64,000 nt of DNA from Octopus vulgaris (lineage: Eukaryota). Positions 2,624 through 64,000 of this stretch are shown piece after piece. The stretch covers positions 19,840,001 through 19,904,000 of the forward strand of contig OX597842.1 in the NCBI GenBank assembly GCA_951406725.2. Direction: 5' to 3'. A program made the position numbers and the translations under genes. Numbering within the stretch: the stretch's first letter is position 1; each line of letters opens with the position of its first letter. The notes beneath the pieces are model-generated. The model was not told where the DNA came from. It did no database searches and was given only the letters and a program-made list of their open reading frames with translations.

Positions 2624-2657
<34 letters not shown>

Positions 2658-3976: not shown

Positions 3977-3995
3977 GAAACAAGAATATATTTAC

Positions 3996-4034
3996 CACTT
4001 TGGGTGATCTTGTAAATGTTTGCACTTGAGAAAC
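3996..4034 (-). CDS. Gene A: 39-nt exon of the distal cassette (phase 1-1; xFSSANIYKITQS-G)
   Basis: ttttcatcttttacag|GTTTCTCAAG...CAAAGTG|gtaaat; joins in frame to the Ig-like exon at 1724. Confidence 0.8.
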
Positions 4035-6760
4035 CTGTAAAAGATGAAAACAAAAATTTTTGATTTTAAGATGAAATAATTCAAAACAATGTGAATAAAT
4101 GAACACTATATTTCACAGTAATTTGATTGCTAAATGATTAAACCAGCAATATCCGTTTTATGTTCTAAGTGGCCGGGTCCAGCCCCTCACACCTACCCTA
4201 CAATGTCAGTCTAAAAATAAACAATCACATCAGCAAAATGTCAAAACTACAAAATAAAGAATGATTAATTCAAAAACCAAGACTAAATGAGCACTACATT
4301 AAACGAAATAAACTGATTGCTAACGAGTTAAAGTAGCCATACCTGGCACAAAGATTCTACCTGTTTCGTGTTTAAAATGGTAATGGGTCAGCCTTTTACA
4401 CCTGTCTTACAATGTCATTCTAAAAATGAACGGACAAGGACTGCTATGCAAAGAAGTGCTGATCTCTAACTGTGGAGGCAATCTGTGGAAGAGGTGGACC
4501 CTGGAAGGTGCAGGACAAAACGGTGGAACATGAGGGCTTTGGATGTTGAGGCTGACATGTATTGATAAGTGACTGTGATTTCTGGGGATTTGCTCTTCTA
4601 CAGAAGATATGTCAAGCTAATGGAAATCAAGGATGTGGCCAGTATCGGTAATTAGTAAAAGGCACCTGTGCCAGTGACGTGTAATTTATAAATCTTTCCT
4701 CAAAACTTTATTGAGAATTTTCAAAATGTGCTCCATCGGCACAATGGAAATTTCAAATGTATCTGTAGACTTGTGAAACACATTTGGAAGTATTTGAGGA
4801 GTTTATCTTCTGCACTGCTAACTGAATGCATTCTTTAAGTTCAGCTAAAAGATTGCTCCATCTGGGGCATTGTGGTAAAGAAATTAATTGCAATCGTATT
4901 GAAAAAAGCTGTCATGGACAGATAAGGAATGAAAATAAAATTATAAACAAAATTAAAAATTTAATCACTTAACATATATTAAATATGTGAAGCAGAAACA
5001 AAAAGGACCTTTAAAAAAAAGGGTCCAATTTCACTGAAATAGATAATTAATTCTGGGACAGTCTGTATTGAAAACACTTAGCCCTACTCAAATGACCCTA
5101 CACTCTGAAATCTTTACCAAGAACAAAGTCCATGGGGTAAAGAGTGGCTATAAGGGGAATCCAGGTGGGCAGATATGGAGATAACGATGTAAATAAACAA
5201 ATAAAACTGAGTGGGTTAGATATACATCCATGCGTACACGTTAATAGAGAGGAAGCAAAGACTGAAAAATTTCAGACGGAGAATATTCAAGCATCAGAAA
5301 TCTGAATTAAATATTAACAGAGCAAACTTACACAGACTAGAAAGGCACAGAAAATCAAAGGGAAGAATGTATGGTGTTACAGCTCCTTTCTTGGCAATCG
5401 GGGTTACTTCATCTTTGGTAGATGTACCATCCATACTCACAAATAGGTCTCGCTTTTTTTCACCAACATTTTAGATAAAAATCAGGGGCACAACCTATCC
5501 AATAGATATTACAGGGATCTGAAGTGGTGTATCGGTAGTCCATGGCATACCCTGGACCTGGGCTTTTCAGTTTTAAAATTGTTATGGAAACTTTTCTGCA
5601 ATGTTTACTAGAAAGCAGAAACTGGAAGTTTGGTATTTGGTATTTTTTTGACATCCAGTCACCCCAATCTTTAGTTTAAAAATTTTGATAATTGCAAACC
5701 CTACTTACAAAGTTATAGTAAGAGTTATCAATAGGCGCAGAAGTGGCTGTGTGGTAAGTAGCTTGCTTACGAACCACATGGTTCCGGGTTCAGTCTCACT
5801 GTGTGGCATGTTGGGCAAGTGTCTTTTACTAAAGCCTCGGGCCGACCAAAGCCTTGTGAGTGGATTTGGTAGACAGAAACTGAAAGAAGCCCGTCGTATA
5901 TATGTATATATATATATGTGTGTTTGTGTGTCTGTTTGTCCTCCAAACATCGCTTGACAACTGATGCTGGTGTGTCTATGTCCCCATTACTTAGCAGTTC
6001 GGCAAAGGAGAACTGATAGAATAAGTACTAGGCTTACAAGGAATAAATCCTGGGGTCGATTTGATCGACAAAACGCGGTGCTCCTGCATGGCCACAGTCA
6101 AATGACTGAAACAAGTAAAAAGAGAAAAAGATTATAACCCCCACACACACACACCTTCGTATTGACCCCCTCATCCTTTGCCCTTGTGGCAAATAAAAGA
6201 AACCCTTATTATATACAACTATCAGCTGAGTCCATTGTGAAGATGGCCCCTCTACTTTCCTTCAACCAGGAAGGGTAATCAGTTTTTATCTGCTCGGGGC
6301 CCATTGCAAAAGGGATCATACAGTGGACATGTCTGAAAGGGCTGAAGACCAGCAATTGCCATTTTGTCAAAACCCTAATAAACTTTGTCAGGTTTCACTT
6401 GAAGAGGAAAATCAGGGTGGAGAGGTAAGTGCTGGCTTCCAAGCAGTTTGTTGAAAGGTGGGTGAGAGAGGTGAGCATTACCTGAGTGAATGGGCCTTCT
6501 CTCAGAGTGTACCTGTATATTGGAGAGGAAAGACCGGGAGAGGGCATCCACCCTGGTGGTCAGGGAGACCTTGGATTTACTGGGCTTTCGTAACGCGTAG
6601 CCCTTGACAGTCCCCCCACTATCAGGGATCTTACTTTGAATTTCTTTTATTCTTTGTATGACTTTTTACATGCTAAAACCCACACTGTACCCTCCCGAAT
6701 GTTTTCCTTTGTGTTAGCCCTCTGTGGTTAATAAAGAAATTATTATAAATCATTTCTTAC

Positions 6761-7009
6761 TCTTTATCTCCAAATCAATTTTTCGAACGTTAAGGTTGTC
6801 ATCTGCAAATATCCAAGTCAAACATTTCTTAGTTACTTTTTTGATCCAAAGCGTGGAGGTATCGCCATCCTGTGTCACTTTATAGTCAGGGCCATCAGCG
6901 CATGTCCTGTCACATTCATATTTATAATTGCTGCACATCCAAACCACCGGTCGTTCCATATAAGGTATTGTTATCGAAAGGGTGAGACTTCCATTGAGCA
7001 CAGCAGGTC
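6761..7009 (-). CDS. Gene A: Ig-like domain exon of the proximal cassette (249 nt, phase 1-1)
   Basis: tttcag|GA acceptor and A|gtaag donor. Translates (G)PAVLNGSLTLSITIPYMERPVVWMCSNYKYECDRTC...DLEIK. Confidence 0.85.
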
Positions 7010-8120
7010 CTGAAATAAAGAAATCAGTTAAGAAGTTTGCTTCCAAATCATACGATCCCGGGTTCAGTCCCACTACACTGCACCTTGAGAAAGTGTCTTC
7101 TACTACAGCCTGTGTGGATTTGGTAGATGGAAACTGAAAGAAGCCCATTGTATGTTTGTGTGTGTGTGTGTATGTATATGTGTGTGCATATATGTATATA
7201 CATACACATTTGTGTGTTTCAAAGCCTTGTTAGTGGATTTGATAGATGGAAACTGAGCGAAGCCCATTGTTTATATATATATATATATATAGGTTCATGA
7301 GTGGCTGTGTGGTGTGTAGCTTGTTTACCAACCACATTGTTCTGGGTTCAGTTCCACTGCATGACACCTTGGGCAAGTGTCTTCCACCATAGCCTCAGGC
7401 CAACCAAAGCCTTGTGAGTGTATTTGATAGATGGAAACTGAAAGAAGCCCATTGTTTATATAAATGTATATATATATGTAATTAGGAAGTTATTATTTCT
7501 AAGTCACTGAATGAGAAACATTCAGTAACATTACTCGAGAGTAAGGATTATTTGCCAGCATAATATGGCATTCCTAGTTAGGATGATCGTTACTGTTATC
7601 TAGCCCTAGGAAACACTGCCTCCAGCTGGGTATATGACACATTATCTATGTCCTATGGGATGCTAAACTCCCTTGTTTGAAAATATAAGGATGCAGCTAG
7701 TGCGTCATATAGTCAGCTGGAGACAATGTTTCCTAGGGCTAAGGAACAGTAACAATCGTCCTAACCAGGACTGCCACATTATGTTGGCAAATAATCTCTA
7801 CCCTAGAGTACTGTTACTCAATGTCTTTTGTTCAGAGATTTAGAAATAATTTTCTATTTGTTAGATCAGTGACTGTGTGTCACTTTGAAAAGTATATATT
7901 TTGGACAAGAGTTTAGTGGAATCACATCTAGCTGAGCAGTTATTCTGTGCTGATGAAGGGAAATAACCCAGAGACCATTGGTATGCAGATAGTGTGCTGT
8001 ATCACCAGCTGGAGATGATGTTTCCTGAGACTAAATAACAGTAACAATCGTCCTAACCAGGACTGCCACATTATGTTGGCAAATAATCTTTACTTCATAT
8101 ATATATATATATATATATAT

Positions 8121-8654
8121 AATAGAAACATTAAAATTTCTTAGTCTCTCTAAAGGAGACTATGGCAGCGGTACTGGATATTAATAGTTATTGCCAAGCT
8201 AATGTGGTAGTCCATAAATATAAGTCTAAAGCTGCTGTTGATTAGCTCCAAGAACCTGTATGGACTACCATATTAGCTTGGCGATAACAATTAATATCCA
8301 GTACCGCTGCCGTAGTCTCCTTTAGAGAGACTCAGAAATTTTGATATTTCTATTTTTGAAAACCAATAGATGTATTCCACTGAAATTAGGTAAATAATCT
8401 TTCGAAAAGATGATTTGTAGCGACACCTGCTGGGTCTGGCTATTCTGCATTGATAAAGAGTAACTACCCTGAAACATGTCTGCAGATGTCTGACCAGCAA
8501 GGGGAAGCAGCTGACCTTCCCTGTTCGAAGGTTATAATGGACACAGGTTCGTGTGTCATATAGCTAGCTTGAGGCAATGGCCTCTTGGAGCTAATCAACG
8601 GCAGCTTTAGTCTTATATTTATGGACTACCAAATTAGCTTGGCGATAACTATTA

Positions 8655-8657
<3 letters not shown>
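8121..8657 (+). mobile_element. Penelope-like/non-autonomous element family B: inverted repeat, degenerate hammerhead motif, direct repeat (fragment also ~58040-58270)
   Basis: ~8121-8215 is inverted relative to ~8258-8356. Hammerhead-like TCTGCA-TTGATAA-AGAGT(AACT)ACCCT-GAAA-CATG-TC-TGCAGA lies at 8444-8486. The arm is repeated at ~8585-8657. Confidence 0.55.
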
Positions 8658-8687
<30 letters not shown>

Positions 8688-8688
<1 letters not shown>

Positions 8689-8900
8689 CGTCTGCCAGCC
8701 TCGTCTGGCACCTGTGTCGGTGGCACATAAAATCACCCACTACATTCTCGGAGTGGTTGGCATTAGGAAGGGCATCCAGCTGTAGAAACACTGCCAGATC
8801 TGACTGGCCTGGTGCAGCCTTCGGGCTTGCCAGACCCCAGTTGAACCGTCCAACCCATGCTAGCATGGAAAGCAGACGTTAAACGATGATGATGATGATG
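8688..8900 (+). mobile_element. SINE-like repeat with (GAT)n tail
   Basis: GGAGTGGTTGGCATTAGGAAGGGCATCCAGC...CATGCTAGCATGGAAAGCAGACGTTAAACGATGATG. Related copies at ~44990-45195(+), 49149-49387(-), 52180-52550(-) and 54912 onward (-). Confidence 0.7.
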
Positions 8901-9134
8901 ATATATATATATAGACACACATATATATATATATATACACACATATATATAAATATATATATATATACTATATATATATATATATATATATATAAATACA
9001 TATATATATATATATATAAATATATATATATATAAACACACAAAATAAGAAAATGGAGGAATAGATTTATTTCAATCATCGACTTCCAGATAATACCAAT
9101 TCATATAATTTATTAACTAATTATTTAGATTAAA

Positions 9135-10353
9135 TAGGACAGGGCTGTATACTTTCTCCCTTTTTATTTCTATTAGTCATAGATTGGATCATGAAGGAAA
9201 CTACGATTGAAAGCCAAACAAGCATTGAATGGACGGATGTGGAAGCTGTAGAAGATCTCGACTTTGCAGATGATATAGCGCTACTTTCACAAACGTAACT
9301 AAATGCAAAATAAAATGTCAAAATTAGAAGCAATAGCTGCCAAACTAGGATTGAAAGTCAACCTCTAATCAATAATTATGCACGTTAATGAAGTAAACAT
9401 TGAATGTATTAAACTAGAAACTGGTGAACTAGAGGATGTAGCCGAGTTTATGTATTTATGTAGTAAGATAACGTTTTCAGGTGGCACCGACGAAGATATT
9501 AAGGTGAGAATAAGTAAGGCAAGGACCGTTTTTCACCTGTTAAAGAAAGTATGGAGCGCAAGTGTAATTTCAATAAACAACAAAATAACCTCTCGAAAGA
9601 GCTGTTCTTCACTCCTGCTCCAGAGCGTCGGCTGCGGGGTCACTTCGAAAAGCTCTATCTGTGACGATTTCGTCTCAATCGAAGGAGAGTGGCCTTCTCC
9701 GTCCGATTTGCAGATCCGTGGAATAAGCTGCCGTACGAGATAGTGAAGATGCTGACAACTGCTCGATTCAAAGTCTCCCTTGACCACAAATGGCCTGAAC
9801 TCTTTGCATGAACACCACCCTGTACATAACTCCGTGTCCCCCTACATGGCCTTGCTTTTTTGCTTTTTGAGCCCAAAAATTATCTTAACTTAACCTAAGT
9901 TAAGAATTTTTAACACAAACGTAAAAGCGGTGTTATTGTATGGGGCTGAGACATGGCAAACAACAGTCAAGTCAAATAAGCAAATACAACCATTCATCAA
10001 CAGATGCTTGCGTAGTATACTTAAAATTAGATGGCCCGAACACATAAGCAATATGGAACTATGGTAAAGAACAAATCAAGTTTCGATTAGGGAGCAAATA
10101 TTTAAGAAAAAGTGGAAGTGGATTGGTAGCACAATTAGAAAAGACACGCCAAATGTAGCAAAAAGTGTTTAAAGTGGAAACCGGTTGGATGTAAAAAGAA
10201 AGGTAGGCCTAAGAACTCGTGGCATAGATCAACACAAAAGGAACTAGAGAAAGGGGGACATTCATGGCAGAGTATAAGTACAGAAGCAAAAAATTATGCA
10301 ACATGGAATTCAATTATGAGTGGCCTATACTCCATGTTGGAGGGTCAAATGTA
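9135..10353 (+). mobile_element. Disrupted RTE LINE fragment (copy in tandem unit 2)
   Basis: Colinear with 2762-3976, including the nested CR1-like insert, with extra stops and frameshifts. Confidence 0.85.
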
Positions 10354-10373
10354 GGAAACAAGAATATATTTAC

Positions 10374-10412
10374 CACTTTGGGTGATATTATAATTTTGTG
10401 CCCTTGACAAAC
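10374..10412 (-). CDS. Gene A: 39-nt exon of the proximal cassette (CLSRAQNYNITQS-G)
   Basis: cttttacag|GTTTGTCAAGG...CAAAGTG|gtaaat; completes the signal peptide and starts the mature domain. Confidence 0.8.
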
Positions 10413-12119
10413 CTGTAAAAGATGAAAACAAAAATTTTGATTTTAAGATGAAATAATTCAAAACAATGTGAATAAATGAACATTACATTTCACAGTAATT
10501 TGATTGCTAAATGATTAAAGCAGCCATATCTGTTTTATGTTCTAAGTGGCCGGGTCCAGCCCCTCACACCTACCCTACAATGTCAGTCTAAAAATAAACA
10601 ATCACATCAGCAAAATGTCAAAACTACAAGATAATGAATGATTAATTCAAAAACCAAGACTAAATCAGCATTACATTAAACGAAATAAACTGATTGCTAA
10701 CGAGTTAAAGTAGCCATACCTGGCACAAAGATTCTACCTGTTTCGTGTTTAAACTGGTAATGGGTCAGCCTTTTACACCTGTCTTACAATGTCATTCTGA
10801 AAATGAACAGACAAGGACTGCTATGTAAAGAAGTGCTGATCTCTAACTGCGGAGGCAATCTGTGGAAGAGGTGGACCCTGGAAGGTGCAGGACAAAACGG
10901 TGGAACATGAGGGCTTTGGATGTTGAGGCTGACATGTATTGATAAGTAACTGCGATTCCTGGGGATTTGCTCTTCTTCAGAAGATATGTCAAGCTAATGG
11001 AAATCAAGGATGTGGCCAGTATCGGTAATTAGTAAAAGGCACTGTGCCAGTGACGTGTAATTTATAAATCTTTCATCAAAACTTTATTGAGAATTTTCAA
11101 AATGTGCTCCATCGGCCCCCCTGGAAATTTCAAATGTATCTGTAGACTTGTGAAACACATTTGGAAGTATTTGAGGAGTTTATCTTCTGCACTGCTAACT
11201 GAATGCATTCTTTAAGTTCAACTAAAAGATTGTTCCATCTGGGGCATTGTGGTAAAGTAATTAATTGCAATCGTATTGAAAAAAGCTGTCATGGACAGAT
11301 AAGGAATGAAAATAATATTATAAACAAAATTAAAAATTTAATCAATTAACATATATTAAATATGTGAAGCAGAAACAAAAAGGACCTTTAAAAAAAAAGG
11401 TCCAATTTCACTGAAATAGATAATTAATTCTGGGACAGTCTGTATTGAAAACACTTAGCCCTACTCAAATGACCTTACACTCTGAAATCTTTACCAAGAA
11501 CAAAGTCCATGGGGTAAAGAGTGGCTATAAGGGGAATCCAGGTGGGCAGATATGGAGATAACGATGTAAATAAACAAATAAAACTGAGTGGGTTAGATAT
11601 ACATCCATGCGTACACGTTAATAGAGAGGAAGCAAAGACTGAAAAATTTCAGACGGAGAATATTCAAGCATCAGAAATCTGAATTAAATATTAACAGAGC
11701 AAACTTACACAGACTAGAAAGGTACAGAAAATCAAAGGGGAGAATGTATGGTGTTACAGCTCCTTTCTTGGCGATCGGGGTTACTTCATTGTTGGTAGTT
11801 GTACCATCCATACTCACAAATAGGTCTCACTTTTTTTTCACCAAAAATTTAGATAAAAATCAAGGGTACAACCTATCCAATAGATATCACAGGGATCTGA
11901 AGTGGTGTATCGGTAGTCCATGGCACCTGGGCTTTTCAGTTTTAAATTTGTTATGGAAACTTTTCTGCAATGTTTACTAGAAAGCAGAAACTGGAAGTTT
12001 GGTATTTGGTACTTTTTTGACATCCAGTCACCCCAATATTTAGTTTAAAAATTTTAATAATTGCAAACCCTACTTACAAGTTATGGAAAAAAATTAAATA
12101 AAATATAAATAAAACTTAC

Positions 12120-12165
12120 AGACAAATGTTACAAACAAACAGCAGAACAAGATCCATTTAGCCAT
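12120..12165 (-). CDS. Gene A: start/signal-peptide exon MAKWILFCCLFVTFV (+1 nt)
   Basis: ttattttttcag|atcATGGCT...TTTGTCT|gtaagt; hydrophobic core and a phase-1 donor compatible with the 39-nt exons. Confidence 0.82.
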
Positions 12166-14461
12166 GATCTGAAAAAATAATTTGCAAAATTTGCAAAATA
12201 ACAAAGTTTATAACCCAGGGTCCGAGGCTGGTCAGGCTGAGAAAAACAAACAGTCACAATATCATCAGTCACTCTTTAATAGATTTGTGGTCGAGCCTGT
12301 GGCATTGGAGATCTTATTCTTAACTATTTCAAATACTATAGAACGCTGTACAGTAGAGACAAGTGCAGTTTGAACTTGCACAAACACTTTTTGCTACAGC
12401 ATTTTCACGTCAAAATAAACGTTTTCTGAAGAAAATTCTAAATCATTTGAAACTTCTAACTGTGAACATTCTTCTTACTCTTTACTCTTTTACTTGTTTC
12501 AGTCATTTGACTGCGGCCATGCTGGAGCACCGCCTTTAGTCGAGCAAATCGACCCCGGGACTTATTCTTTGTAAACCCAGTACTTATTCTATCGGTCTCT
12601 TTTGCCGAACTGCTAAGTGATGGGGACGTAAACATACCAGCATCGGTTGTGAAGCAATGCTAGGGGGACAAACACAGACACACACATACATATATATGAA
12701 AGGCTTCTTTCAGTTTCCGTCTACCAAATCCACTCACAAGGCATTGGTCAGCCCGGGGCTATAGCAGAAGACACTTGCCCGATATGCCACGCAGTGGGAC
12801 TGAACCCGGAACCATGTGGTTGGTAAGCAAGCTACTTACCACACAGCCACTCCTGCGCCTTCTTGTATAGTTTTTCTGAAAATCCAACAGTTACAGATCA
12901 TGTCAGGTTCCCTGAAACTCCATGGTATTTCCTCGCATTTACAAACTTTGTTTTTTTCTTGGACTTTTGAATGACAACCCTCGTTCTAGTTCAATGCACT
13001 CAAGCACCATAACTCATGTTGCATTCAAAAATCATGCGTCCCCGAAGTCCATCCCCTCCTCACCGTGGTGGGGACACTGGCAACGGGTAGTGTCAGAGCT
13101 ATGCTGTCGGGAACTTCGGTTCCTTGTAGGGCCACCCAAGGCAGATTGGTCTTACACCGAGTGGTATTAGGCCCACAACCCGGCAGACGGTGCTCTGGTG
13201 AAAATCCTCGGAGTGTCTGTTTCAGCAACTGGCGGCTCCTCGGTCTTTGGGTTGTCTCTCTCTCTCTCCACATCTCCTAATGAGTTACCAGTAAGTTACA
13301 GATATTGATAGAGTCTTGAATTTACATTTTTAATGCTTAAAATAAGGAATTAGTTTTCACATTTTGTTTGTTCTTTAATCTATGTCTACATGTAATTCTG
13401 TGAAAGGTACACAGTGTCTGTGTGATATGCAAGACACAACAGCTAAATCTCCCTCATATCACCCATCTTTTCATGTGAAAATCACTCATCCTTTCATTTC
13501 ACCAAGAAAAACAAAAAAACAGTAGAAATTACATTTAAATATTTTCAAAAATTCATGGTGACACCTATTTCAAATGGTACCCTCTAAATTAAAACTACAT
13601 ACAAAAAAAGATAAAATAACGATTTTTATTGAGGAAAATTTTTGGAATGAAATCTTTTTGGAATGGTGGGTTTATGGTCGAGTGTGCACATTGGAGACCT
13701 CTGGCACCCTAGGGCCCTCAGCTGTATCCCTGCTCACAGCTATCGGGCAGAAATGGCTACCTGCATGTGCAAGCCCTGTGGGTCTCCATTGCCCACCTCT
13801 AGGGCAACTCCTTTTCTATTTTGTCTGCTGGGACGTTGAGGTGGTCTGAATTACAACAAACTGTATGTTCCATTCCTTAACCCTTTCTTTACCATATTTC
13901 TGTCGAGATGTTCTGTGTTTCTTTCAATTACTTTAAATATAACAAAGAATTTAGTAAAATAACTTAGTTATCATTAAGATAGTATTAGGAACATAAATTG
14001 TGATTAAGGTTTGGTGGAAGATTTGAATTCAAAACTTAAGAAAACAAGACATTTGTACTACAGAGCCAGAGGTGGTTTCGGTCGGGTTGGTAACAAAAGG
14101 GTTAATGTAAAATTTGAAGAGACAGATTTAAACTTTACACTGTTTCCGCCTCCTCCCCCTTTTTTTTTGAGTTTTATCAATTACTATACAACACTAAAGC
14201 AACTGCATTTTTTGTCTCTTTCTTTCTTCTTGCTGAATGAAAACAAATACCAAATTACAGGTATTTGTATAATTGTGGCCTTCCAGGTAGAATCCTGGTT
14301 TAAACAGTTCTTATAATTTCAGAAAATTTTTGCAACACACACAAATTAATATAATTATTGAAAAGACATAAAATGGATCATAAAATGAAATATCATCTTA
14401 ATTATTAATTTAAGAGAATCAGTATCAGAAAATAGCATATTGATATATTACTGATGTTCAC

Positions 14462-14632
14462 CTTAATTTTACGAAATAATCTTTAATATATATCTTGTGT
14501 TTTTATTACAATACAATCCAATATTTACAACAGAATCTCTTCTTTTTGGACAAACCTTATAGTTGTGGCTTGATGCAATGGGAAGTTTCAAAAACCAACT
14601 GGGAAATACAAACAACGAAAAGAACTTAGTTT
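14462..14632 (-). other. Candidate non-coding 5' exon of gene A (paralogous copy ~63733-63903)
   Basis: Strong polypyrimidine tract ttttatttttttctttcag and an AAG|gtgaac donor. The ATG exon is preceded by an acceptor, so an upstream exon is expected. Confidence 0.3.
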
Positions 14633-17039
14633 CTGAAAGAAAAAATAAAAGATATTATTTTTTAGAATTTTACTGAAAATGTACTGAATTTTTTAAAAAT
14701 TCAAAAAGTAAAAAGGTTATGAGTGGTCATATGGGGTTCTTAAACGAGAATTCCACCAAAAATCAAATTTTCAAACCAGTTTTTTTTAATAGCATAAATG
14801 TTTTTATGGGGACAACAATATTGAAAAACATGAATACATGTTACAGTGAGGAAGAAACAAGAAAGGTGGTTGTGGGATGTGTTAGAAACAACAGGCAGAT
14901 CTCCCTTAAATGACACACCTTTCTTTACTCATAACTTTCTGACAAATGGATATTAATGGATATATCGGAATTTGATGTGAAAAAGTTTTCCGAAGGTGGA
15001 GTGAAAAGTTTTGGAAAATTCACATCAGTTGGCTTTATTTCCTCATAACTTTTGGAAAAATGGATATTTTTTTAGTGGAATTTCCTACAAATATCATTCG
15101 GATTGTGAAGGTAACGATTATATCAGAATTTAATATGTAAACAAAATTTGTGGGCTCACACACATACATAATTACATACACATCGTGAATTCAAACTTGA
15201 TAGAAAAATGTTATATCTGTCAGTATGTGTGTGTGTGTATGTGTGCAAACCTATCATATTTTTTTTTTCATAATAGACTTCAATATTACTCTTTACTCTT
15301 TTACTTATTTCAGTCATTTGGCTGCGGCCATGCTGGAGCACCGCCTTTAGTCGAGGAAATCGACCCCCAGGACTTATTCTTTGTAAGCCCAGTACTTATT
15401 CTATCGGTCTATTACGTACATGTATATGAAAGATAAGGAGTGTAGATGTGTGTTTGGGTGTGATTAACTACAAGTAGATACAGCTGAATATGGCGTGATG
15501 GCGCGTACATCCGTTATCTTTCATAAACAGGGACACACATCTTTCACTTTCTCCTCTCAGAAGCAAATATCGCCTTCCACTCATCATCAAAATAAAAGAA
15601 AAGAAAAGAATTTTTTACGGGAATTTACGAACAATCCGCTGATCAAATTCGACGCTTCTGCAGCCAAAGCCGAAAGATTTCCAGACGTAATTCTTCAGTT
15701 TTGGTAAACAACGTCAGTCACTGACACAAGCTTCTCTTATGGCACAAACGAAGGGGCGGGACTACTTGCGTATAGACGTCACGGCGCGCGCACTTGTGTA
15801 GTCACGCATCCGCACAAGCTAGTCATGACTAGTCAATCCTTACTTTGTGTTTTTGAGTTTTATTTACTTTGTTTAAAAAAAATTCACTAACACTGACCCT
15901 AACCCTAATTTTAGCCTTTCGTTTTTTTTTCATTAATTAATAAATTAATTTAATTGTTACGCGTGTGTCTAAAATTATTCGTTTTGTTTTTGTTTTGAGA
16001 CACACGTGTATTGTTTAAACTATTGTTGGATCTTTTCCTTTTGAAGGCCAGTTTTCAACAATGTTTTATTTTGACACATTCTACCAGTATACGAAGTTTA
16101 AAAGTATTTAGTTAATTAGAAATTGTGTTGAAAACTGGCCTTCAAAAGGAAAAGATCCTTATTATTATTTTGCTGGAGTTTTTTTTCCTCGGTGAAAATC
16201 GTGCAGGTGAAAAGCTTAATAGGGGTGCGGGTGAAATTTCTGAGGTTTCCACCTCACCCCACCCCGATTTCGGGACTCGAAAAAGGATTTTATAGCATAT
16301 TAGGAGATCATAGGAATTCATAGAAAATTTTTTCCGATTCAAACCGAAAAGATTCGTTTAATATTTCGAATTACATAATCTTTTACGGAGATACCCAAAT
16401 CTTTTAAGAGCTTAGGGCCTCGACGGCCCTGCCCAACATTGGAATTTAAAAACACTTACCCGAGAACAAGTATTGCAGTAACGACGACGTAGCATCTGCT
16501 GTCGAAGACTAAAAAGGATGCAAAGTTCTCCACCAATAGAATTAACCACTGCAGCTTCGACGGTTGGGATGTGAGAGCGAGGGGGTACTATGTTCAAAAA
16601 TAAACATTATTTGGTCTCGTACGACACTCGTATACATACATATTGTACATACGGACCCATACAAGCCTATACATATATACAGAGGTGGGCACGGTTAATC
16701 TAAAAGTTCACTTCGTTAATTCTTTGAAAATTCAACGGAAGGTAGGGTTAAGGTTTATTGAACAAGAGGCATACCTACAGTTTAATACCCCACCGACTTC
16801 GTTGCATCAAAACTTCCAAGAAGTCGATACATTTTAACCAAACTTTCACCAAAGGCGCATGAGTGGCTGTGTGGTAAGTAGCTTGCTTACCAATCACATG
16901 GTTCCGGGTTCATTCCCACTGCTTGACACATTGGGCAAGTGTCTTCTACTATAGCCACGGGTCGACCAAAGCCTTGTGAGTGGATTTGGTAGATAAAAAC
17001 AGAACAGGCACACACACACTATGGAAATTACACGGAATC

Positions 17040-54911: not shown

Positions 54912-56192
54912 TCATCATCATCATCATCATCATCATCATTTAACGTCCGCCTTCCATGCTAGCATGGGTTGGACGGTTCAACTGGGGTCTGGGGAGCCCG
55001 AAAGCTGCACCAGTCCAGTCAGATCTGGCAGTGTTTCTACAGCTGGATGCCCTTCCTAACGCCAACCACTCCGAGAGTGTAGTGGGTGATTTTATGTGCC
55101 ACCGACACAGGTGCCAGACGAGGCTGGCAAACGGCCACGCTCGGATGATGTTTTTTATGTGCCACCGACACAGGTGCCAGACGAGGCTGGCAGACGGCCA
55201 CGCTCGGATGGTGTTTTTATGTGCCACCGACACAGGAGCCAGATGAGGCTGGCAAACGGCCACGATCGGATGGTGCTTGTTACGTGCCCACAGCACGGAG
55301 GCCAGTCGATGCGGTACTGGCTACGGCCATGTTCGGATGGTTTTCTTGTGTGCCACGTGCCACCGGCACTGGTACCACAAAGATACAAATTCCATTGATG
55401 TTCATCTATTTTGATTTGTTTTGATTTTCACTTGCCTCAACAGGTCTTCACAAGTGTCACAAGAAGGAAGGTATGCACAGGCGGACTGACTACGTCCCAG
55501 GTAGGGACCATGGGTTATGGCCTGACTAGTCTTGCCGGGTCTTCGGATGGTGTTTTTATGTGCCACCGACACAGGTGCTAGATGAGGCTAGCGAACGGCC
55601 ACGATCGGATGGTGTTTGTCATGTGCCCACAGCACGGAGGCCAGTCGATGCGGTACTGGCTACGGCCACTTTCGGATGGTTTTCTCTTGTGTGCCACCGG
55701 CACTGGTACCACGAAGATACAAATTCCATTGATGTTCATCTATTTTGATTTGTTTTGATTTGATTTTGATTTTCACTTGCCTCAACAGGCCTTCACAAGT
55801 ATCACAAGGAGGAAGGTATGCACAGGTGGACTGACTACGTCCCAGGTAGGGGCCATGGTTTATGGCCTGACTAGTCTTGCCGGGTCTTCGGATGGTGTTT
55901 TTATGTGCCACCGACACAGGTGCTAGATGAGGCTGGCGACGTCCCAGGTAGGGGCCATGGTTTATGGCCTGACTAGTCTTGCCGGGTCTTCGGATGGTGT
56001 TTTTATGTGCCACCGACACAGGTGCTAGATGAGGCTGGCGAACGGCCACGATTGGATGGTGTTTGTTGTGCCCACAGCACGATGGCCAGTGATGCGGTAC
56101 TGACTACCGAATTATTTCTTCTTTCCAGACATCAGTTGAACCGTCCAACCCATGCTAGCATGGAAAGCAGATGCTAAACGATGATGATGATG
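54912..56192 (-). repeat. SINE-derived complex tandem repeat bracketed by inverted SINE tails
   Basis: TTTTATGTGCCACCGACACAGGTGC subunit recurs about 6 times, with a larger duplication. CCATGCTAGCATGGGTTGGACGGTTCAACTG at ~54954 is inverted at ~56133-56163. Confidence 0.75.
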
Positions 56193-56228
56193 AAAAGAAC
56201 ACAAATTGTAGTGTTCTTATACTGATGT

Positions 56229-56362
56229 TTATTTTGTAAAATATTTATAGCCAAAGAAAGCGAGTCCGACAAGGATTGCAGCAAGGATCAGTGAGCCAAA
56301 AATGATTCCGACAATCTCAAGTATACTGTAGGTTTTTGGTTTAGGAGGTTCAGGTTTCGGAT
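56229..56362 (-). CDS. Gene B: terminal exon with Pro/Lys stalk, transmembrane helix and 6-aa tail
   Basis: ttgtttgtcaattgcag|AT, then (N)PKPEPPKPKTYSILEIVGIIFGSLILAAILVGLAFFGYKYFTK*; phase matches the Ig exon donor. Confidence 0.85.
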
Positions 56363-57596
56363 CTGCAATTGACAAACAATAAAATATATACCTTTTGTTT
56401 TTAATAAAAAATAGTAATATCTCCCAAGCTTGACCATTTTCATACTAAACTATTAAAAAATACTTTCGTTTCTATTATACATATTCCATTTCAAAGTGAT
56501 CTAAAGGAAAAGTCCCCATCAAAATTTCCAGTAACACTATGTTGCACACATGAGCTTGGTTATATAAAGCCTTGTGAGTGGATTTGGTAGACGAAAACTG
56601 AAAGAAGCCCGTCGTATATATGTGTGTGTTTGTGTGTCTGTTTGTCCCCCTAGCATTGCTTGACAACCGATGCTGGGGTGTCTACGTCCCCGTTACTTAG
56701 CGGTTCAGCAAGAGAACCAATTTGGTAGATGGAAACTGAAAGAAGCCCGTCGTATATATGTGTGTGTTTGTGTGGCTGTTTGTCCTCCAAACATCGCTTG
56801 ACAACCGTTGCTGGTTTGTCTACATCCCCGTTACTTAGTGGTTCGGCAAAAGAGAACTCATAGAATAAGTACAAAGAATAAATCCTGGGGTTGATTTGCT
56901 CGACTAAAGGCGGTGCTCCAGCATGGCCACAGTAAAAATGACTGAAACAAGTAAAAAGAGAAAGATAATATAACCTCCACACACACACACCTTGGTATTG
57001 ACCCCCTCATCCTTTGCCCTTGTGGCAAATAAAAGAAACCCTTATATACAACTATCAACTGAGTCCATTGTGAAGATGGCCCCTCTACTTTCCTTCAACC
57101 AGGAAGGGCAACCAGTTTTTATCTGCTCGGGGCCCATGGCAAAAGGGATCATATAGTGGACATGTCTGAAAGGGCTGAAGACCAGCAACTGCCATTTTGT
57201 CAAAACCCTAATAAACTTTATCAGGTTTCACTTGAAGAGGAAAATCAGGGTGGAGAGGTAAGTGCTGGCTTCCAAGCAGTTTGTTGAAAGGTGGGTGAGA
57301 GAGGTGAGCATTACCTGAGTGAATGGGCCTTCTCTTAGAGTGTACCTGTATATTGGAGAGGAAAGACTGGGAGAGGGTATCCACCCTGGTGGTCAGGGAG
57401 ACCTTGGATTTACTGGGCTTTCGTAACGCGTAGCCCTTGAAAGTGCCCCCAAACTATCAGGGATCTTACTTTGACTTTCTTTTATTCTTTGTATGACTTT
57501 TTACATGCTAAAACCCACACTGGACCCTCCCGAATGTTTTCCTTTGTGTTAGCCCTCTGTGGTTAATAAAGAAATTATTATAAATCATTTCCTTAC

Positions 57597-57845
57597 TCTT
57601 TATCTCCAAATAAATGTCTGCAGCTTTAAGGTTGTCATCATTAAATCTCCAAATCGAACATTTCTTAGTTACTTTTCTGATCCAAAGCGTGGAGGTATCT
57701 CCACTATGTGTTACTTTATAGTCAGTGCCGTTAGCGCATGTTCTGTCACATTCATATTTATAATTCTGGCACTTCCAAACCACCGGTCGTTTCATATTAG
57801 GTATTGTTATCGAAAGGGTGAGGTTTCTATTGAGCACAGCAGGTC
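57597..57845 (-). CDS. Gene B: Ig-like domain exon (249 nt, phase 1-1)
   Basis: tttcag|GA ... A|gtaagg. Translates (G)PAVLNRNLTLSITIPNMKRPVVWKCQNYKYECDRTCANGTDYKVTHSGDTSTLWIRKVTKKCSIWRFNDDNLKAADIYLEIK. Confidence 0.87.
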
Positions 57846-58294
57846 CTGAAATAAAGAAATCAGTTAAGAAGTTTGCTTCCAAATCACATGGTCCTGGGTT
57901 CAGTCCCACTACACAGCACCTTGGGAAAGTGTCTTCTACTACAGCATCAACCTTGTGAGTGGATTTGGTAGATGGAAATTGAAAGAAGCCCATTGTATGT
58001 ATATGTGTGTGTGTGTATGTGTGAGTGTGTGCGTGTGTATGTATGACTGGCAGTGTGAAGCGGCTGACCTCCCTTGTTCGAAGGTTATAATGGACACAGT
58101 TTGTGTGTCAAATAGCTAGCTTGAGGCGATGGCCTCTTGGAACTAATCATCGACAGCTTTAGTCTTATATCTATAGGACTGCCATATTAATATGGCGATA
58201 ACAATTAATTTCCAGTAACGCTGCCGTAATCTCTTTTAGAGAGACTTAGTAATTTTAATATTTCTATTATATATATATATATATATATATAAGA

Positions 58295-59587
58295 GCAACT
58301 TACCAAGGAATGTCATACCGAGTCTTGCAGGGAAACGGAGCTACAGATAAATTTGAAGTAAAAACAGGAGTTCGACAGGGCTGTATCCTTACTCCCTTTT
58401 TATTTCTATTAGTTATAGATTGGATTATGAAGGAAACTACGATTGAAAGCCAAACAAGCATTGAATGGACGGATGTGGAAGCTGTAGAAGATCTCGACTT
58501 TGCAGATGATATAGCGCTGCTTTCATAAACATAGCCAAATGCAAAATAAAATATCAAAATTAGAAGCAATAGCTGCCAAAGTAGGATTGAAAGTCAACCT
58601 CAAATCAATAATTATGCACGTTAATGAAGTAAACATTGAATGTATTCAACTAGAAACTGGTGAACTGAAGGATGTAGCCGAGTTTATGTATTCAGGTAGT
58701 AAGATAACGTTTTCAGGTGGCACCGACGAAGATATTAAGGTGAGAATAAGTAAGGCAAGGACCGTTTTTCACCTGTTAAAGAAAGTATGGAGCGCAAGTG
58801 TAATTTCAATAAACAACAAAATAACCTCTCGAAAGAGCTGTTCTTCACTCCTGCTCCAGAGCGTCGGCTGCGGGGTCACTCCGAAAAGCTCTATCTGCGA
58901 CGATTTCATCTCAATCGAAGGAGAGTGGCCTTCTCCGTCCGATTTGCGGATCCGTGGAATAAGCTGCCGGACGAGATAGTGAAGATGCCGACGACCGCTC
59001 GGTTCAAAGTCTCCCTTGACCACAAATGGCCTGAACTCTTTGCATGAACACCACCCTGTACATAACTCCATGTTCCCCTACATGGCCTTTTGCTGTTTGC
59101 TTTTTGAGCCCAAAAATTAACTTAACTTAAGTTAAGAATTTTTAACACTAACGTAAAAGTGGTGTTATTGTATGGGGCTGAGACATGGCAAACAACAGTC
59201 AAGTCAAATAAGCAAATACAATCATTCATCAACAGATGCTTGCGTAGTATACTTAAAATTAGATGGCCCCAACACACACGCAATATGGAGCTATGGCAAT
59301 GAACAAATCAAGTTTTGATTAGGGAGCAAATATTTAAGAAAAGGAGGAAGTGGATTGGTAGCACAATTAGAAAAGACACACTAAATGTAGTGAAAAGTGC
59401 TTTAAAGTGGAAACCGGTTGGATATAGAAAGAAAGGTAGGCCTAAGAACTCGTGGCATAGATCAACACAAAAGGAACTAGAGAAAGGAGGACATTCATGG
59501 CAGAGTATAAGTACAGAGGCGAAATATTATGCAACATGGAATTCAATTATGAGTGGCCTATACTCCACGTTGGAGGGTCAAATGTAG
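58295..59587 (+). mobile_element. Disrupted RTE LINE fragment (longest copy)
   Basis: KTGVRQGCILTPFLF and DLDFADDIALLS reverse-transcriptase motifs; same nested CR1-like insert. Confidence 0.88.
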
Positions 59588-59606
59588 GAAACAAGAATAT
59601 ATTTAC

Positions 59607-59645
59607 CACTTTGGGTGATCTTGTAAATGTTTGCACTTGAGAAAC
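59607..59645 (-). CDS. Gene B: 39-nt exon (CFSSANIYKITQS-G)
   Basis: cttttacag|GT...G|gtaaat; identical to 3996-4034. Confidence 0.82.
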
Positions 59646-61363
59646 CTGTAAAAGATGAAAACAAAACTTTTTGATTTTAAGATGAAATAATTCAAAACAA
59701 TGTGAATAAATGAACACTATATTTCACAGTAATTTGATTGCTAAATGATTAAACCAGCAATATCCGTTTTATGTTCTAAGTGGCCGGGTCCAGCCCCTCA
59801 CACCTACCCTACAATGTCAGTCTAAAAATAAACAATCACATCATCAAAATGTCAAAACTACAAAATAAAGAATGATTAATTCAAAAACCAAGACTAAATG
59901 AGCATTACATTAAACGAAATAAACTGATTGCTAACGAGTTAAAGTAGCCATACCTGGCACAAAGATTCTACCTGTTTCGTGTTTAAACTGGTAATGGGTC
60001 ATCCTTTTACACCTGTCTTACAATGTCATTCTAAAAATGAACAGACAAGGACTGCTATGTAAAGAAGTGCTGATCTCTAACTGTGGAGGCAATCTGTGGA
60101 AGAGGTGGACCCTGGAAGGTGCAGGACAAAACGGTGGAACATGAGGGCTTTGGATGTTGAGGCTGACATGTATTGATAAGTGACTGTGATTTCTGGGGAT
60201 TTGCTCTTCTTCAGAAGATATGTCAAGCTAATGGAAATCAAGGATGTGGCCAGTGTCGGTAATTAGTAAAAGGCACCTGTGCCAGTGACGTGTAATTTAT
60301 AAATCTTTCATCAAAACTTTATTGAGAATTTTCAAAATGTGCTCCATCGGCACAATGGAAATTTCAAATGTATCTGTAGACTTGTGAAACCAATTTGGAA
60401 GTATTTGAGGAGTTTATCTTCTGCACTGCCAACTGAATGCATTCTTTAAGTTCAGCTAAAAGATTGCTCCATCTGGGGCATTGTGGTAAAGAAATTAATT
60501 GCAATCATATTGAAAAAAGCTGTCATGGACAGATAAGGAATGAAAATAAAATTATAAACAAAATTAAAAATTTAATCACTTAACATTTATTAAATATGTG
60601 AAGCAGAAACAAAAAGGACCTTTAAAAAAAAAAGGGTCCATTTTCACTGAAATGGATAATCAATTCTGGGACAGTCTGTATTGAAAACACTTAGCCCTAC
60701 TCAAATGACCCTACACTCTGAAATCTTTACCAAGAACAAAGTCCATGGGGTAAAGAGTGGCTATAAGGGGAATCCAGGTGGGCAGATATGGAGATAACGA
60801 TGTAAATAAACAAATAAAACTGAGTGGGTTAGATATACATCCATGCGTACACGTTAATAGAGAGGAAGCAAAGACTGAAAAATTTCAGACGGAGAATATT
60901 CAAGCATCAGAAATCTGAATTAAATATTAACAGAGCAAACTTACACAGACTAGAAAGGCACAGAAAATCAAAGGGGAGAATGTATGGTGTTACAGCTCCT
61001 TTCTTGGGGATTGGGCTTACTTCATTGTTGGTAGATGTACCATCCATACTCACAAATAGGTCTCACTTTTTTTTCACCAAAAATTTAGATAAAAATCAAG
61101 GGTACAACCTATCCAATAGATATCACAGGGATCTGAAGTGGTGTATCGGTTGTCCATGGCATACCCTGGACCTGGGCTTTTCAGTTTTAAAATTGTTATG
61201 GAAACTTTTCTGCAATGTTTACTAGAAAGCAGAAACTGGAAGTTTGGTATTTGGTATTTTTTGACATCCAGTCACCCCAATCTTTAGTTTAAAAATTTTA
61301 ATAATTGCAAACCCTACTTACAAGTTATGGAAAAAAATTAAATAAAATATAAATAAAACTTAC

Positions 61364-61409
61364 AGAGAAATGTTACAAACAAACAGTAGAACAAGATCCA
61401 TTTAGCCAT
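61364..61409 (-). CDS. Gene B: start/signal-peptide exon MAKWILFYCLFVTFL (+1 nt)
   Basis: ttttttcag|atcATG...CTCT|gtaagt. The four exons sum to 46+39+249+134 = 468 nt, i.e. 155 aa plus stop. Confidence 0.85.
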
Positions 61410-64000
61410 GATCTGAAAAAATAAATTTCAAAATTTGCAAAATAACAAAGTTTATAACCCAGGGTCCGAAGCTGGTCAGGCTGAGAAAAACAAACAGTCA
61501 CAATATCATCAGTCACTCTTTAATAGATTTGTGGTCGAGCCTGTGGCATTGGAGATCTTATTCTTAACTATTTCGAATACTATAGAACGCTGTACAGTAG
61601 AGACAAGTGCAGTTTGAACTTGCACAAACACTTTTTGCTACAGCATTTTCACGTCAAAATAAACGTTTTCTGAAGAAAATTCTAAATCATTTGAAACTAT
61701 GAACATTCTTTTTACTCTTTACTCTTTTACTTGTTTCAGTCATTTGACTGTGGCCATGCTGGAGCACCGCCTTTAGTCGAGCAAATCGACCCCGGGACTT
61801 ATTCTTTGTAAACCCAGTACTTATTCTATCGGTCTCTTTTGCCGAACTGCTAAGTGACGGGGACGTAAACATACCAGCATCGGTTGTGAAGCAATGCTAG
61901 GGGGACAAACACAGACACACACATACATATATATATATACATATATATGAAAGGCTTCTTTCAGTTTCCGTCTACCAAATCCACTCACAAGGCATTGGTC
62001 AGCCCGGGGCTATAGCAGAAGACACTTGCCCAAGATGCCACGCAGTGGGACTGAACCCGGAACCATGTGGTTGGTAAGCAAGCTACTTACCACACAGCCA
62101 CTCCTGCGCCTTCTTGTATAGTTTTTCTGAAAATCCAACAGTTACAGATCATGTCAGGTTCCCTGAAACTCCATGGTATTTCCTCGCATTTACAAACTTT
62201 TATTTTTTTTCTTGGACTGTTGAATGACAACCCACGTTCTAGTTCAATGCACTCAAGCACCATAACTCATGTTGCATTCAAAAATCATGCGTCCCCAAAG
62301 TCCATCCCCTTCTCACCGTGGTGGGGACACTGGCAACGGGTAGTGTCAGAGCTATGCTGTCGGGAACTTCGGTTCCTTGTAGGGCCACCCAAGGCAGTTT
62401 GGTCTGACACCGAGTGGTATTAGGCCCACAACCCGGCAGACGGGGCTCTGGTGAAAATCCTCGGAGTGTCTGTTTCAGCAACTGGTGGCTCCTCGGTCTT
62501 TGGGTTGTCTCTCTCTCTCTCTCCACATCTCCTAATGAGTTTGCAGTAAGCTTCAGATATTGATAGAGTCTTGAATTTACATTTTTAATGCTTAAAATAA
62601 GGAATTAGTTTTCACATTTTGTTTGTTCTTTAATCTATGTCTACATGTAATTCTGTGAAAGGTACACAGTGTCTGTGTGATATGCAAGACACAACAGCTA
62701 AATCTCCCTCATATCACCCATCTTTTCATGTGAAAATCACACATCCTTTCATTTCACCAAGAAAAAATAAAAAAAACAGTAGAAATTACATTTAAATATT
62801 TTCAAAAATTCATGGTGACACCTATTTCAGGTGGTACCCTCTAAATTAAAACTACATACAAAAAAAGATAATATAACGATTTTTATTGAGGAAAATTTTT
62901 GGAAAGAAATCTTTTTGGAATGGTGGGTTTATGGTCGAGTGTGCACATTGGAGACCTCTGGCACCCTAGGGCCCTCAGCTGTATCCCTGCTCACAGCTAT
63001 CGGGCAGAAATGGCTACCTGCATGTGCAAGCCCTGTGGGTCTCCATTGCCCTCCTCTAGGGCAACTCCTTTTCTATTTTGTCTGCTGGGACCATGAGGTG
63101 GTCTGAATTACAACAAATTTTACGTTCCATTCCTTAACCCTTTCATTACCATATTTCTGTTGAGATGCTCTGTGTTTCTTTCAATTAATTTTAAATATAA
63201 CAAAGAATTTAGAAAAATAACTTAGTTATCATTAAGCTTGTGTTAGGAACATAAATTGTGACTAAGGTTTGGTGGAAGATTTGAATTCAAAACTTAAGAA
63301 AACAAGACATTTGTACTACAGAACTAGAGAAGGTTTCGGTCAGGTTGGTAACAAAAGGGTTAATGTAAAATTTGAAGAGACAGATTTAAACTTTGCACTG
63401 TTTCCGCCTCCTCCCCCTTTTTTTTTTAGTTTTATCAATTACTATACAACACTAAAGCAACTGCATTTTTTGTCTCTTTCTTTCTTCTTGCTGAATGAAA
63501 ACAAATACCGAATTACAGGTATTTGTATAATTGTGGCCTTCCAGGTAGAATCCTGGTTTAAACAGTCCTTATAATTTCAGAAAATTTTTGCAACACACAC
63601 AAATTAATATAATTATTGAAAAGACAGCATGGTGTTTCACTTTCTGGATCATAAAATGAAATATCATCTTAATTATTAATTTAAGAGAATCAGTATCAGA
63701 AAATAGCATATCGATATATTACTGATGTTCACCTTAATTTTACGAAATAATCTTTAATATATATCTTGTGTTTTTATTACAATACAATCCAATATTTACA
63801 ACAGAATCTCTTCTATTTGGACAAACCTTATAGTTGTGGCTTGATGCAATGGGAAGTTTCAAAAACCAACTGGGAAATACAAACAACGAAAAGAACTTAG
63901 TTTCTGAAAGAAAAAAATAAAAGATATTATTTTTTAGAATTTTACTGAAAATGTACTGAATTTTTAAAAAATTCAAAAAGTAAAAAGGTTATGAGTGGTC

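What the first reader, a model, noticed from the sequence alone, without database searches (positions are those of the whole stretch)
56229..61409. Hidden complete gene: 155-aa type-I membrane protein with a non-canonical Ig-like domain
Seen: four minus-strand exons give MAKWILFYCLFVTFLCFSSA-NIYKITQSGPAVLNRNLTLSITIP...VVWKCQNYKYECDRTC...STLWIRKVTKKCSIWRF...LEIK-NPKPEPPKPK-TYSILEIVGIIFGSLILAAILVGLAFFG-YKYFTK. The ORF track shows only a SINE-fused piece. Knowledge: the spacing of LTLSI, VVW and STLWI.KV matches Ig B, C and E strands, and phase-1 symmetric exons are typical of Ig superfamily genes. However, the canonical B- and F-strand cysteines are replaced (LTLSI; W.F), and four other cysteines are invariant across copies. 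The 6-aa tail suggests a ligand, adhesion or co-receptor role rather than direct signalling (inference). I do not recognise the family.
Basis: partly seen in the sequence, partly recalled or inferred. Interest (0 to 1): 0.75.

Follow-up and report, generated by a model that had tools for sequence, protein, structure and literature searches.

The report
Fast-evolving octopus antibody-fold surface protein
An intact octopus gene encodes a small protein predicted to sit in the cell membrane with one antibody-like domain; it is a patchwork of its neighbours in an apparently unstudied, fast-changing gene cluster and likely serves as a binding surface in an arms race with microbes.

Summary
Observation confirmed. 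Four minus-strand, GT-AG, phase-1 exons give the 155-aa frame. AlphaFold gives a confident beta-sandwich (pLDDT 94) that matches I- and V-set Ig domains. It lacks the B-F cysteines and has a CxxxC loop instead. The gene is one of 12 tandem paralogues with 1-4 domains. Five end in a transmembrane helix with a short tail, four in a tail-less GPI-like end, three in a stop before the anchor. This copy is a three-part mosaic of three neighbours. The domain exon diverges faster than its introns (0.11 vs 0.04; dN/dS 1.7, CI 1.0-3.2), with strong recombination. Named close relatives are uncharacterised proteins of Octopus and Argonauta. Family splice junctions appear in contigs from four studies, but expression of this copy and its tissue are not shown. 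Best reading: a non-signalling, CEACAM-like ligand or decoy under pathogen-driven selection (0.5), convergent with CEACAMs rather than a member. This scan noted the same cluster before on neighbouring DNA. My paper searches found no description of it.

The parts
63827..63903 (-). upstream exon (77 nt, AG..GT), no ATG, in frame with exon 1; likely 5' UTR, could extend the N-terminus if the exon beyond the window is used
   Evidence: present in O. sinensis and O. vulgaris gene models P0008, P0016, P0018
61364..61412 (-). exon 1: 3 nt leader, ATG at 61409, hydrophobic signal-peptide core (residues 5-15)
   Evidence: helix 3-17 in the model of homologue P0013; SignalP not available
59607..59645 (-). 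exon 2, 39-nt phase-1 micro-exon: end of signal peptide and Ig strand A; of the type found inside multi-domain paralogues
57597..57845 (-). exon 3, 249-nt phase-1 exon: Ig strands A'-G, CxxxC loop, covarying C25/C62 pair, two N-glycosylation sequons
56229..56362 (-). exon 4: Pro/Lys stalk, transmembrane helix (about residues 125-148) with three small-xxx-small motifs, 6-aa tail, stop; 211 of 211 nt identical to exon 4 region of paralogue H
60600..64000 (-). 5' block, 98-100% identical to paralogue G (C29 about 20.04 Mb), best or tied-best in 14 of 14 windows
59100..60600 (-). middle block, 98-100% identical to an internal module of paralogue C (or J/G)
56100..58850 (-). 3' block, 98-100% identical to the second module and anchor exon of paralogue H, except exon 3 (94%)
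1476..14633 (-). 5' part of the neighbouring four-domain paralogue C (upstream exon near 14633, exon 1 at 12165, micro-exons at 10412 and 4034, domain exons at 7009 and 1724); continues out of the window and ends in a stop at the start of its anchor exon

Best explanation
The gene encodes a 155-aa protein predicted to be a glycosylated type-I membrane protein with one non-canonical Ig domain, which likely acts as a non-signalling ligand or decoy that binds a fast-changing partner, most likely of microbial or parasite origin. How it would work: a cleaved signal peptide (inferred) delivers one Ig domain (fold predicted with high confidence) on a short stalk. The core lacks the B-F disulfide and is likely braced by a C32-C36 loop bond and a C25-C62 bond (inferred from conservation and covariation). 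The outward residues of the GFCC' face and the DE loop vary most between copies (shown, with faces assigned by strand alternation), so they likely form the binding surface. The 6-aa tail has no ITIM, ITAM or YxxM motif and the helix core has no charged residue, so any signal would have to pass through a partner; small-xxx-small motifs may pair helices (inferred). Diversity is made in the germ line. Every coding exon is phase 1, so unequal crossing-over or conversion between near-identical introns can add, delete or swap modules without breaking the frame; this copy is such a mosaic (shown). Nonsense changes in the anchor exon turn sister genes into likely GPI-anchored and secreted forms, as in the CEACAM/PSG family.
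For: Fold: pLDDT 94-98 over the domain; 11 hits at E<=0.001, I-set and V-set; Z 10-11, rmsd 2.3-2.9 A over 82-93 residues for nearly all rows; weak I-set in 7 of 64, Ig_3 in 7 of 64. Cysteines: C25 and C62 are both present in 26, both absent in 32 and split in 6 of 64 (Fisher p 1.5e-11; 7e-4 in the 44 exons outside the cluster; relatedness not corrected). Cluster: 12 genes with 1-4 modules; 5 TM, 4 tail-less, 3 stop before the anchor. Selection, tree-free: exon more divergent than 500 nt of downstream intron in 226 of 231 pairs, 0.113 vs 0.042; codon positions 1 and 2 more divergent than 3; dN 0.146, dS 0.088, ratio 1.67; this copy vs H module 2: 15 of 249 exon differences (12 replacement and 2 silent codons) against 20 of 2024 in introns, p 1e-6. 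Face: 20 of 22 core positions invariant; entropy 1.13 bits on outward GFC positions vs 0.52 on ABED (12 vs 9 positions, p 0.011). Recombination: PHI-like p 0.0002; mosaic. Splicing of the family. Analogy: PMC2832619 passages describe TM, GPI and secreted CEACAMs, GPI forms arising from stop codons in TM exons, and a CFG face that is the least conserved; the PMC8860441 abstract describes pathogen-driven selection with gene conversion.
Against: No ligand, tissue or cell type is known; 'pathogen' rests on analogy. The dN/dS interval reaches 1.0. The tree-based tests (M0 omega 2.0; M2a vs M1a 2dL 59.7) are my own implementation and are inflated by the recombination they sit on. All 12 residues that separate this copy from H module 2 also occur in other paralogues, so its exon excess can come from conversion of old variants rather than new selection on this copy. 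Variation is not confined to one face. 169 of 231 31-mers of exon 3 are shared with other copies, so the contigs cannot be assigned to this gene; the exon 1-2 junction was not tested and an exon 3-4 junction is not visible in the cut tables. None of the family proteins I scanned has a clear ITIM or ITAM, although P0048 has YNMM repeats by eye, so the inhibitory parent that a CEACAM-style decoy would protect is not identified.
Confidence: 0.5

Rival explanations
1. Self or non-self tag: the copies are cell-surface identity codes that bind like-with-like or a cognate paralogue, as Hydractinia Alr1/Alr2 do, serving tissue self-recognition or neuronal wiring.
For: Clustered, diversified, non-canonical Ig genes lacking the pin cysteines, as in Alr (PMC9546547 passages). 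Variation is highest on the GFC face, the usual homophilic face (recalled). Structure hits include ZIG-8, NCAM2, RIG-5 and KIRREL3 domains. Phase-1 modules allow combinations, and O. sinensis models list many isoforms.
Against: No signalling tail in any of the 12 genes, whereas many Alr tails carry ITAM/ITIM. Conversion spreads variants across paralogues, which would blur a code. Secreted forms fit decoys better.
Confidence: 0.2
2. Reproductive recognition protein (sperm, egg, spermatophore or oviducal gland), diversified by sexual selection or conflict.
For: Reproductive proteins also evolve fast, and the CEA family includes secreted placental members (PMC2832619 passages). Distant look-alikes occur in abalone.
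Against: Exon-3-like sequence is held by runs of at least four studies of one organism, with spliced junctions, which suggests it is not confined to one rare tissue; tissues are not given. Many paralogues with three anchor types are more typical of immune clusters (recalled).
Confidence: 0.12
3. By-product of an unstable segmental duplication interleaved with histone and zinc-finger genes; this copy is a recent chimera with little function of its own, and the stop-codon copies are decaying.
For: Histone and C2H2 genes lie between the copies; this copy is a mosaic; 7 of 12 anchor exons carry premature stops; broken exon-3 copies exist elsewhere.
Against: 22 of 22 cluster domain exons are open with intact splice sites, and 20 of 22 core positions are invariant while the surface varies faster than introns. 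The stops recur at the same two codons in several genes.
Confidence: 0.12
4. Assembly artefact: a mis-join of near-identical repeats made this gene.
For: Its blocks are 98-100% identical to three different neighbours.
Against: Its exon 3 differs from every other cluster exon by at least 14 of 246 nt. One contig (X4, 123 nt) is 2 letters from this copy, while the nearest other copies are 5 letters from it over that stretch.
Confidence: 0.04

Closest known systems
Uncharacterised Octopus and Argonauta gene models (O. sinensis LOC115225115, LOC115225116, LOC115230624; O. vulgaris hypothetical proteins; O. bimaculoides LOC106881157, LOC106868859; Argonauta hians GAB1602944.1)
   Same: Same family: 55-89% identity over exon 3 among the 17 hits, same exon modules.
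   Different: None of the 17 hits equals this gene; several models fuse neighbours (one joins H2B to paralogue H). All are unnamed and without function.
Vertebrate CEACAM/PSG family
   Same: Tandem cluster; variable domain number; TM, GPI and secreted forms arising by stops in or before the TM exon; least conserved CFG face; gene conversion (PMC2832619 passages, PMC8860441 abstract). CEACAM1 and CEACAM7 N domains align at Z 10.3 and 9.9.
   Different: 9-10% structural identity, tied with antibodies and titin; no sequence hit. Domain shorter, split over two exons, with a CxxxC loop; the same domain type is repeated rather than N plus constant domains; no ITIM/ITAM member in the cluster. A convergent analogue.
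Hydractinia Alr family
   Same: Invertebrate cluster of Ig genes whose domains lack the B-F cysteines and are missed by Pfam (PMC9546547 passages).
   Different: Alr domain 1 mostly lacks the C-strand Trp (kept here in 61 of 64) and has C''; Alr proteins have an Fn3-like region and many have ITAM/ITIM tails.
CD2/CD58/SLAM adhesion pair family
   Same: Small Ig domain; CD58 (1qa9_B) matches at TM 0.69. Lack of the B-F bond in CD2/CD58 domain 1 and TM/GPI forms of CD58 are recalled.
   Different: No sequence link; vertebrate-specific (recalled).
Haliotis tandem-Ig membrane proteins (LOC124119024, LOC124122840)
   Same: CxxxC loop before strand D and a similar D-E-F stretch; found by the family profile.
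   Different: Weak: hhalign probability 51%, 49 columns; E-values add up repeats. Uncharacterised themselves.

Membership tests
Immunoglobulin superfamily (V/I-set fold) | Greek-key beta-sandwich A-A'-B-C-C'-D-E-F-G | tested here: met
   strand order; all listed hits are Ig domains
Immunoglobulin superfamily (V/I-set fold) | C-strand tryptophan and E-strand hydrophobic core residue | tested here: met
   W23 in 61 of 64; position 53 Leu/Ile/Phe/Val/Met in 64 of 64; features as listed in PMC9546547 passages
Canonical V/I-set Ig domain | B-F disulfide (pin) | tested here: not met
   Positions 12 and 67 are mostly Ile and Phe, Cys in none of the five commonest residues (register inferred). PMC9546547 accepts pin-less domains as IgSF, so this bars 'canonical', not IgSF.
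Canonical V/I-set Ig domain | EF-loop Asp and tyrosine corner | tested here: not met
   This gene has Cys62 and Trp65; Asp is kept in 20 of 64 relatives, Trp65 in 63 of 64
V-set versus I-set | C'' strand (V-set only) | tested here: inconclusive
   Only isolated bridges after C'; Foldseek favours I-set, VIA ties V and I
CEACAM/PSG | Sequence homology to CEACAM N domain | tested here: not met
   Profile search of PDB sequences gave 2 hits at E<=10, neither a CEACAM; 9-10% identity in structural alignments
CEACAM/PSG | Cluster with TM, GPI and secreted members, diversified N domain, conversion (mode of evolution) | tested here: met
   GPI use inferred from the recalled signal consensus, no predictor run
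CEACAM/PSG | ITIM- or ITAM-bearing members | tested here: inconclusive
   None in the 12 cluster genes or clearly in scanned models; distant member P0048 has a long tyrosine-bearing tail
CEACAM/PSG | Binding of microbial adhesins | not testable with these tools
   needs binding assays
Hydractinia Alr | V plus I domains, Fn3-like region, tail often with ITAM/ITIM | tested here: not met
   One domain, 12-aa stalk, 6-aa tail against PMC9546547 passages
Hydractinia Alr | Allele-specific homophilic binding | not testable with these tools
   needs cell aggregation assays
Molluscan FREPs | Ig domain joined to a fibrinogen domain (recalled) | tested here: not met
   The 155-aa frame has no room for one; no fibrinogen family in Pfam scans
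Dscam-type exon arrays | Mutually exclusive choice among alternative Ig exons (recalled) | tested here: inconclusive
   Domain-to-next-module junctions show tandem use, and each gene has its own leader and anchor exon; long-range splicing across genes not tested

The most novel reading that the evidence does not exclude
The cluster is the octopus's own germ-line recognition system: frame-neutral two-exon Ig modules are reshuffled between genes by crossing-over (and perhaps by read-through splicing), giving each animal a different set of membrane, GPI and secreted binders. It would be a CEACAM/KIR-like system built independently in molluscs, used for immune discrimination or for telling own tissue from foreign.
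Probability: 0.25. Interest if true: 0.85.

Novelty: new variant of a known kind. Interest (0 to 1): 0.55.

Why it matters
Little is known about how cephalopods recognise pathogens or self; a 2026 methods paper calls octopus immunity poorly understood (PMC13230822, abstract). This family gives concrete, testable candidates. It has about 80 domain exons, is barely seen by Pfam, is mis-modelled in annotations, and shows the marks of a recognition arms race. It would be an independent origin of the CEACAM pattern (TM, GPI and secreted forms from one anchor exon). This single-domain copy is the simplest member to express and solve. The gene alone is ordinary in size and topology; the interest lies in the cluster.

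Tried and rejected
Pfam on exon 3 and exon 4 alone: nothing significant. PDB sequence profile: 2 hits at E 0.9-1.3, one a titin D-E strand match. Homodimer prediction for the domain of homologue P0013: no verdict, score 0.08 against a mark of 0.32, alignment not used. ESM Atlas with homologue P0026: best 0.90 adenovirus E3 CR1, then V-set clusters at 0.87-0.89; leads only. Run search: no holder on record as RNA, and no tissue given; RNA status rests on the junctions. Contig depth was not used as expression. Share of words (0.71 in X1) rejected as proof that this copy is expressed, since 73% of its 31-mers are shared. No squid or cuttlefish name among 37 of 52 profile hits looked up or 26 of 26 word-index hits; 15 long repeat proteins were not looked up, and database coverage of squids is unknown, so absence is not shown. 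Tissue from papers: 12 gene ids not found in the 3 text supplements of PMC9712504, one further file unreadable; its marker tables may hold the answer. Literature: searches listed no paper on this family; passages of PMC9068888, PMC11703226, PMC9258296 and PMC13428168 did not mention it. Subscription papers are not covered. Dropped rows: 15 of 78 exon hits (off-frame, partial, broken, one duplicate) were left out of alignment A1; the selection set is the 22 exons of the 12 complete cluster genes only. Adaptor coupling of the DAP12 type rejected: no charged residue in the helix core.
Full report
Observation. Testing all GT/AG boundaries near them gives the 155-aa frame from exons 61409-61364, 59645-59607, 57845-57597 and 56362-56229, all joined in phase 1. 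Hydropathy shows an N-terminal core at residues 5-15 and a helix at about 125-148; there are two sequons and a 6-aa tail. An upstream exon at 63903-63827 and one about 2.4 kb beyond the window match O. sinensis models, so the coding part is complete but the gene is longer than reported.

Family. Exon 3 has 82 matches among 132 scored candidates in the own genome, 70 of them on the window's contig. All 17 longer database hits are uncharacterised Octopus proteins, none equal to this gene. A profile of 64 exons found 52 representatives. Of the 37 with a look-up, 25 are Octopus, 2 Argonauta, 4 Haliotis, 1 lamprey obscurin-like, 1 bacterial and 4 unnamed; 15 long proteins were not looked up. A second search gave 24 Octopus and 2 Argonauta of 26. 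The abalone link is weak (probability 51%). The family is therefore at least octopod-wide.

Fold. AlphaFold on exon 3 with the 64-row alignment gives mean pLDDT 94.2 and seven strands. On homologue P0013 the micro-exon supplies strand A, so one domain is built from a 39-nt and a 249-nt exon. Foldseek returns titin, obscurin, NCAM2, ZIG-8, PD-L1, CD58 and antibody domains, TM 0.55-0.74. VIA gives Z 10-11 to V- and I-set domains, including CEACAM1 N at Z 10.3, all effectively tied. Pfam sees I-set weakly in 7 of 64 members. The C-strand Trp is kept in 61 of 64, the B and F positions hold Ile and Phe, and Trp replaces the tyrosine corner. C32 is invariant, C36 is in 58 of 64, and C25 and C62 come and go together; another subfamily has a covarying pair around the FG loop instead. 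Disulfides are inferred, since I had no coordinates.

Cluster. Searches with exons 1, 2 and 4 and the fetched regions define 12 complete genes over about 0.6 Mb, which I label A-L; the finding is D. They carry 1 to 4 two-exon modules. Genes A, B, D, H and K keep the helix and a short tail. E, F, I and L stop inside the helix at a shared codon, leaving small residues, a spacer and a hydrophobic end, which fits the recalled GPI consensus. C, G and J stop at the start of the anchor exon and would be secreted. PMC2832619 (passages) describes the same three forms in CEACAMs, with GPI signals arising from stops in TM exons.

This copy is a mosaic. In 250-nt windows its 5' part matches G at 98-100%, the region around exon 2 matches an internal module of C, and the 3' part matches the second module and anchor of H. 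Its micro-exon is of the internal type. A crossing-over that removed upstream modules explains this (inferred); phase-1 symmetry keeps such products in frame. Exon 3 itself is at least 14 nt from every other cluster exon, which argues against a simple mis-assembly.

Selection. Across the 22 cluster exons dN is 0.146 and dS 0.088 (ratio 1.67, bootstrap 1.0-3.2). The exon is more divergent than its downstream intron in 226 of 231 pairs. D and H module 2 differ at 6% of exon sites but 1% of flanking intron sites, with 12 replacement and 2 silent codons. My own codon models give omega 2.0 and favour a selected class (2dL 59.7), but recombination is strong (38% of informative site pairs incompatible; PHI-like p 0.0002), which inflates such tests. 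The 12 residues all occur in other paralogues, so the picture is a shared pool of surface variants shuffled by conversion while introns are homogenised. The core is fixed (20 of 22 positions). Outward GFC positions and the DE loop vary most (faces assigned by alternation).

Expression. Twenty of 23 listed runs from 7 studies hold part of exon 3; none is on record as RNA. Contigs from four studies show loose ends that are splice junctions: micro-exon to exon 3 in X1, X3 and X4, domain exon to next micro-exon in X3 and X5, and a paralogue's anchor exon in X5. So the family is transcribed and spliced as modelled. These contigs cannot be assigned to D, because 73% of its 31-mers are shared; one X4 contig is nearer to D than to any other copy. 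The exon 1-2 junction is untested and no tissue is known.

Mechanism. Shown: frame, cluster, three C-terminal types, mosaic origin, fixed core with variable surface, family splicing. Predicted: Ig fold, signal peptide, helix. Inferred: disulfides, GPI and secreted fates, a binding role for the GFC face, and the partner. I commit to a non-signalling ligand or decoy for microbial or parasite molecules (0.5), by analogy with CEACAMs (PMC8860441, abstract and outline). Rivals are an Alr-like self code (0.2; PMC9546547 passages), a reproductive role (0.12), a duplication by-product (0.12) and an assembly artefact (0.04).

Known and new. It is an IgSF member by fold but not a canonical V- or I-set domain, and not a CEACAM, Alr or FREP by the tests listed. 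Eight paper searches found no description (listings seen, passages read as cited); PMC9068888 passages on coleoid gene clusters do not mention it. This scan had already noted the cluster from neighbouring windows with a similar CEACAM reading; I recorded my reading before looking, and those notes are not independent support. Verdict: real, new variant of a known kind, interest 0.55.

Noticed in passing
window 23620-24644, 27448-28447, 31269-32293: A histone cluster (H2B/H2A pair twice, H3/H4 pair once) lies between paralogues C and D. A database model fuses H2B to paralogue H (P0014), so histone genes may be part of the repeated unit.
   Followed up: partly
window 35349-36101 and 38110-39141: Two C2H2 zinc-finger frames on the minus strand; an O. 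sinensis isoform (P0002) splices the Ig domains into an exon near 39653-39531.
   Followed up: no
L038 and L044 (G000:C29:19989725 and 20156389): A second, 43-nt leader exon lies 0.6-0.8 kb upstream of exon 1 in paralogues F and I; O. sinensis isoforms start with this type.
   Followed up: partly
P0017, P0024, P0027, P0042, P0043, P0048; L052, L062, L063, L068-L071: Dispersed members on other contigs join the domain to a second cysteine-rich domain with no Pfam match; Argonauta members are of this type, so it may be ancestral. P0048 has a long tail with two YNMM repeats.
   Followed up: partly
P0004, P0007: O. sinensis models join two micro-exons directly, skipping a domain exon; possible because all exons are phase 1.
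   Followed up: no
window 56229-56235: The stop codon overlaps an AATAAA, and no other poly(A) signal was found in the next 900 nt.
   Followed up: no
G000:C29 7.22-7.64, 16.4-16.5, 18.2-18.6, 27.39-27.47 Mb and 0.28-0.36 Mb: Further sub-clusters of more divergent members, some with different cysteine sets.
   Followed up: partly
window 49365-50141: A 258-aa frame that looks like a piggyBac-type transposase fragment (recalled resemblance, not tested).
   Followed up: no
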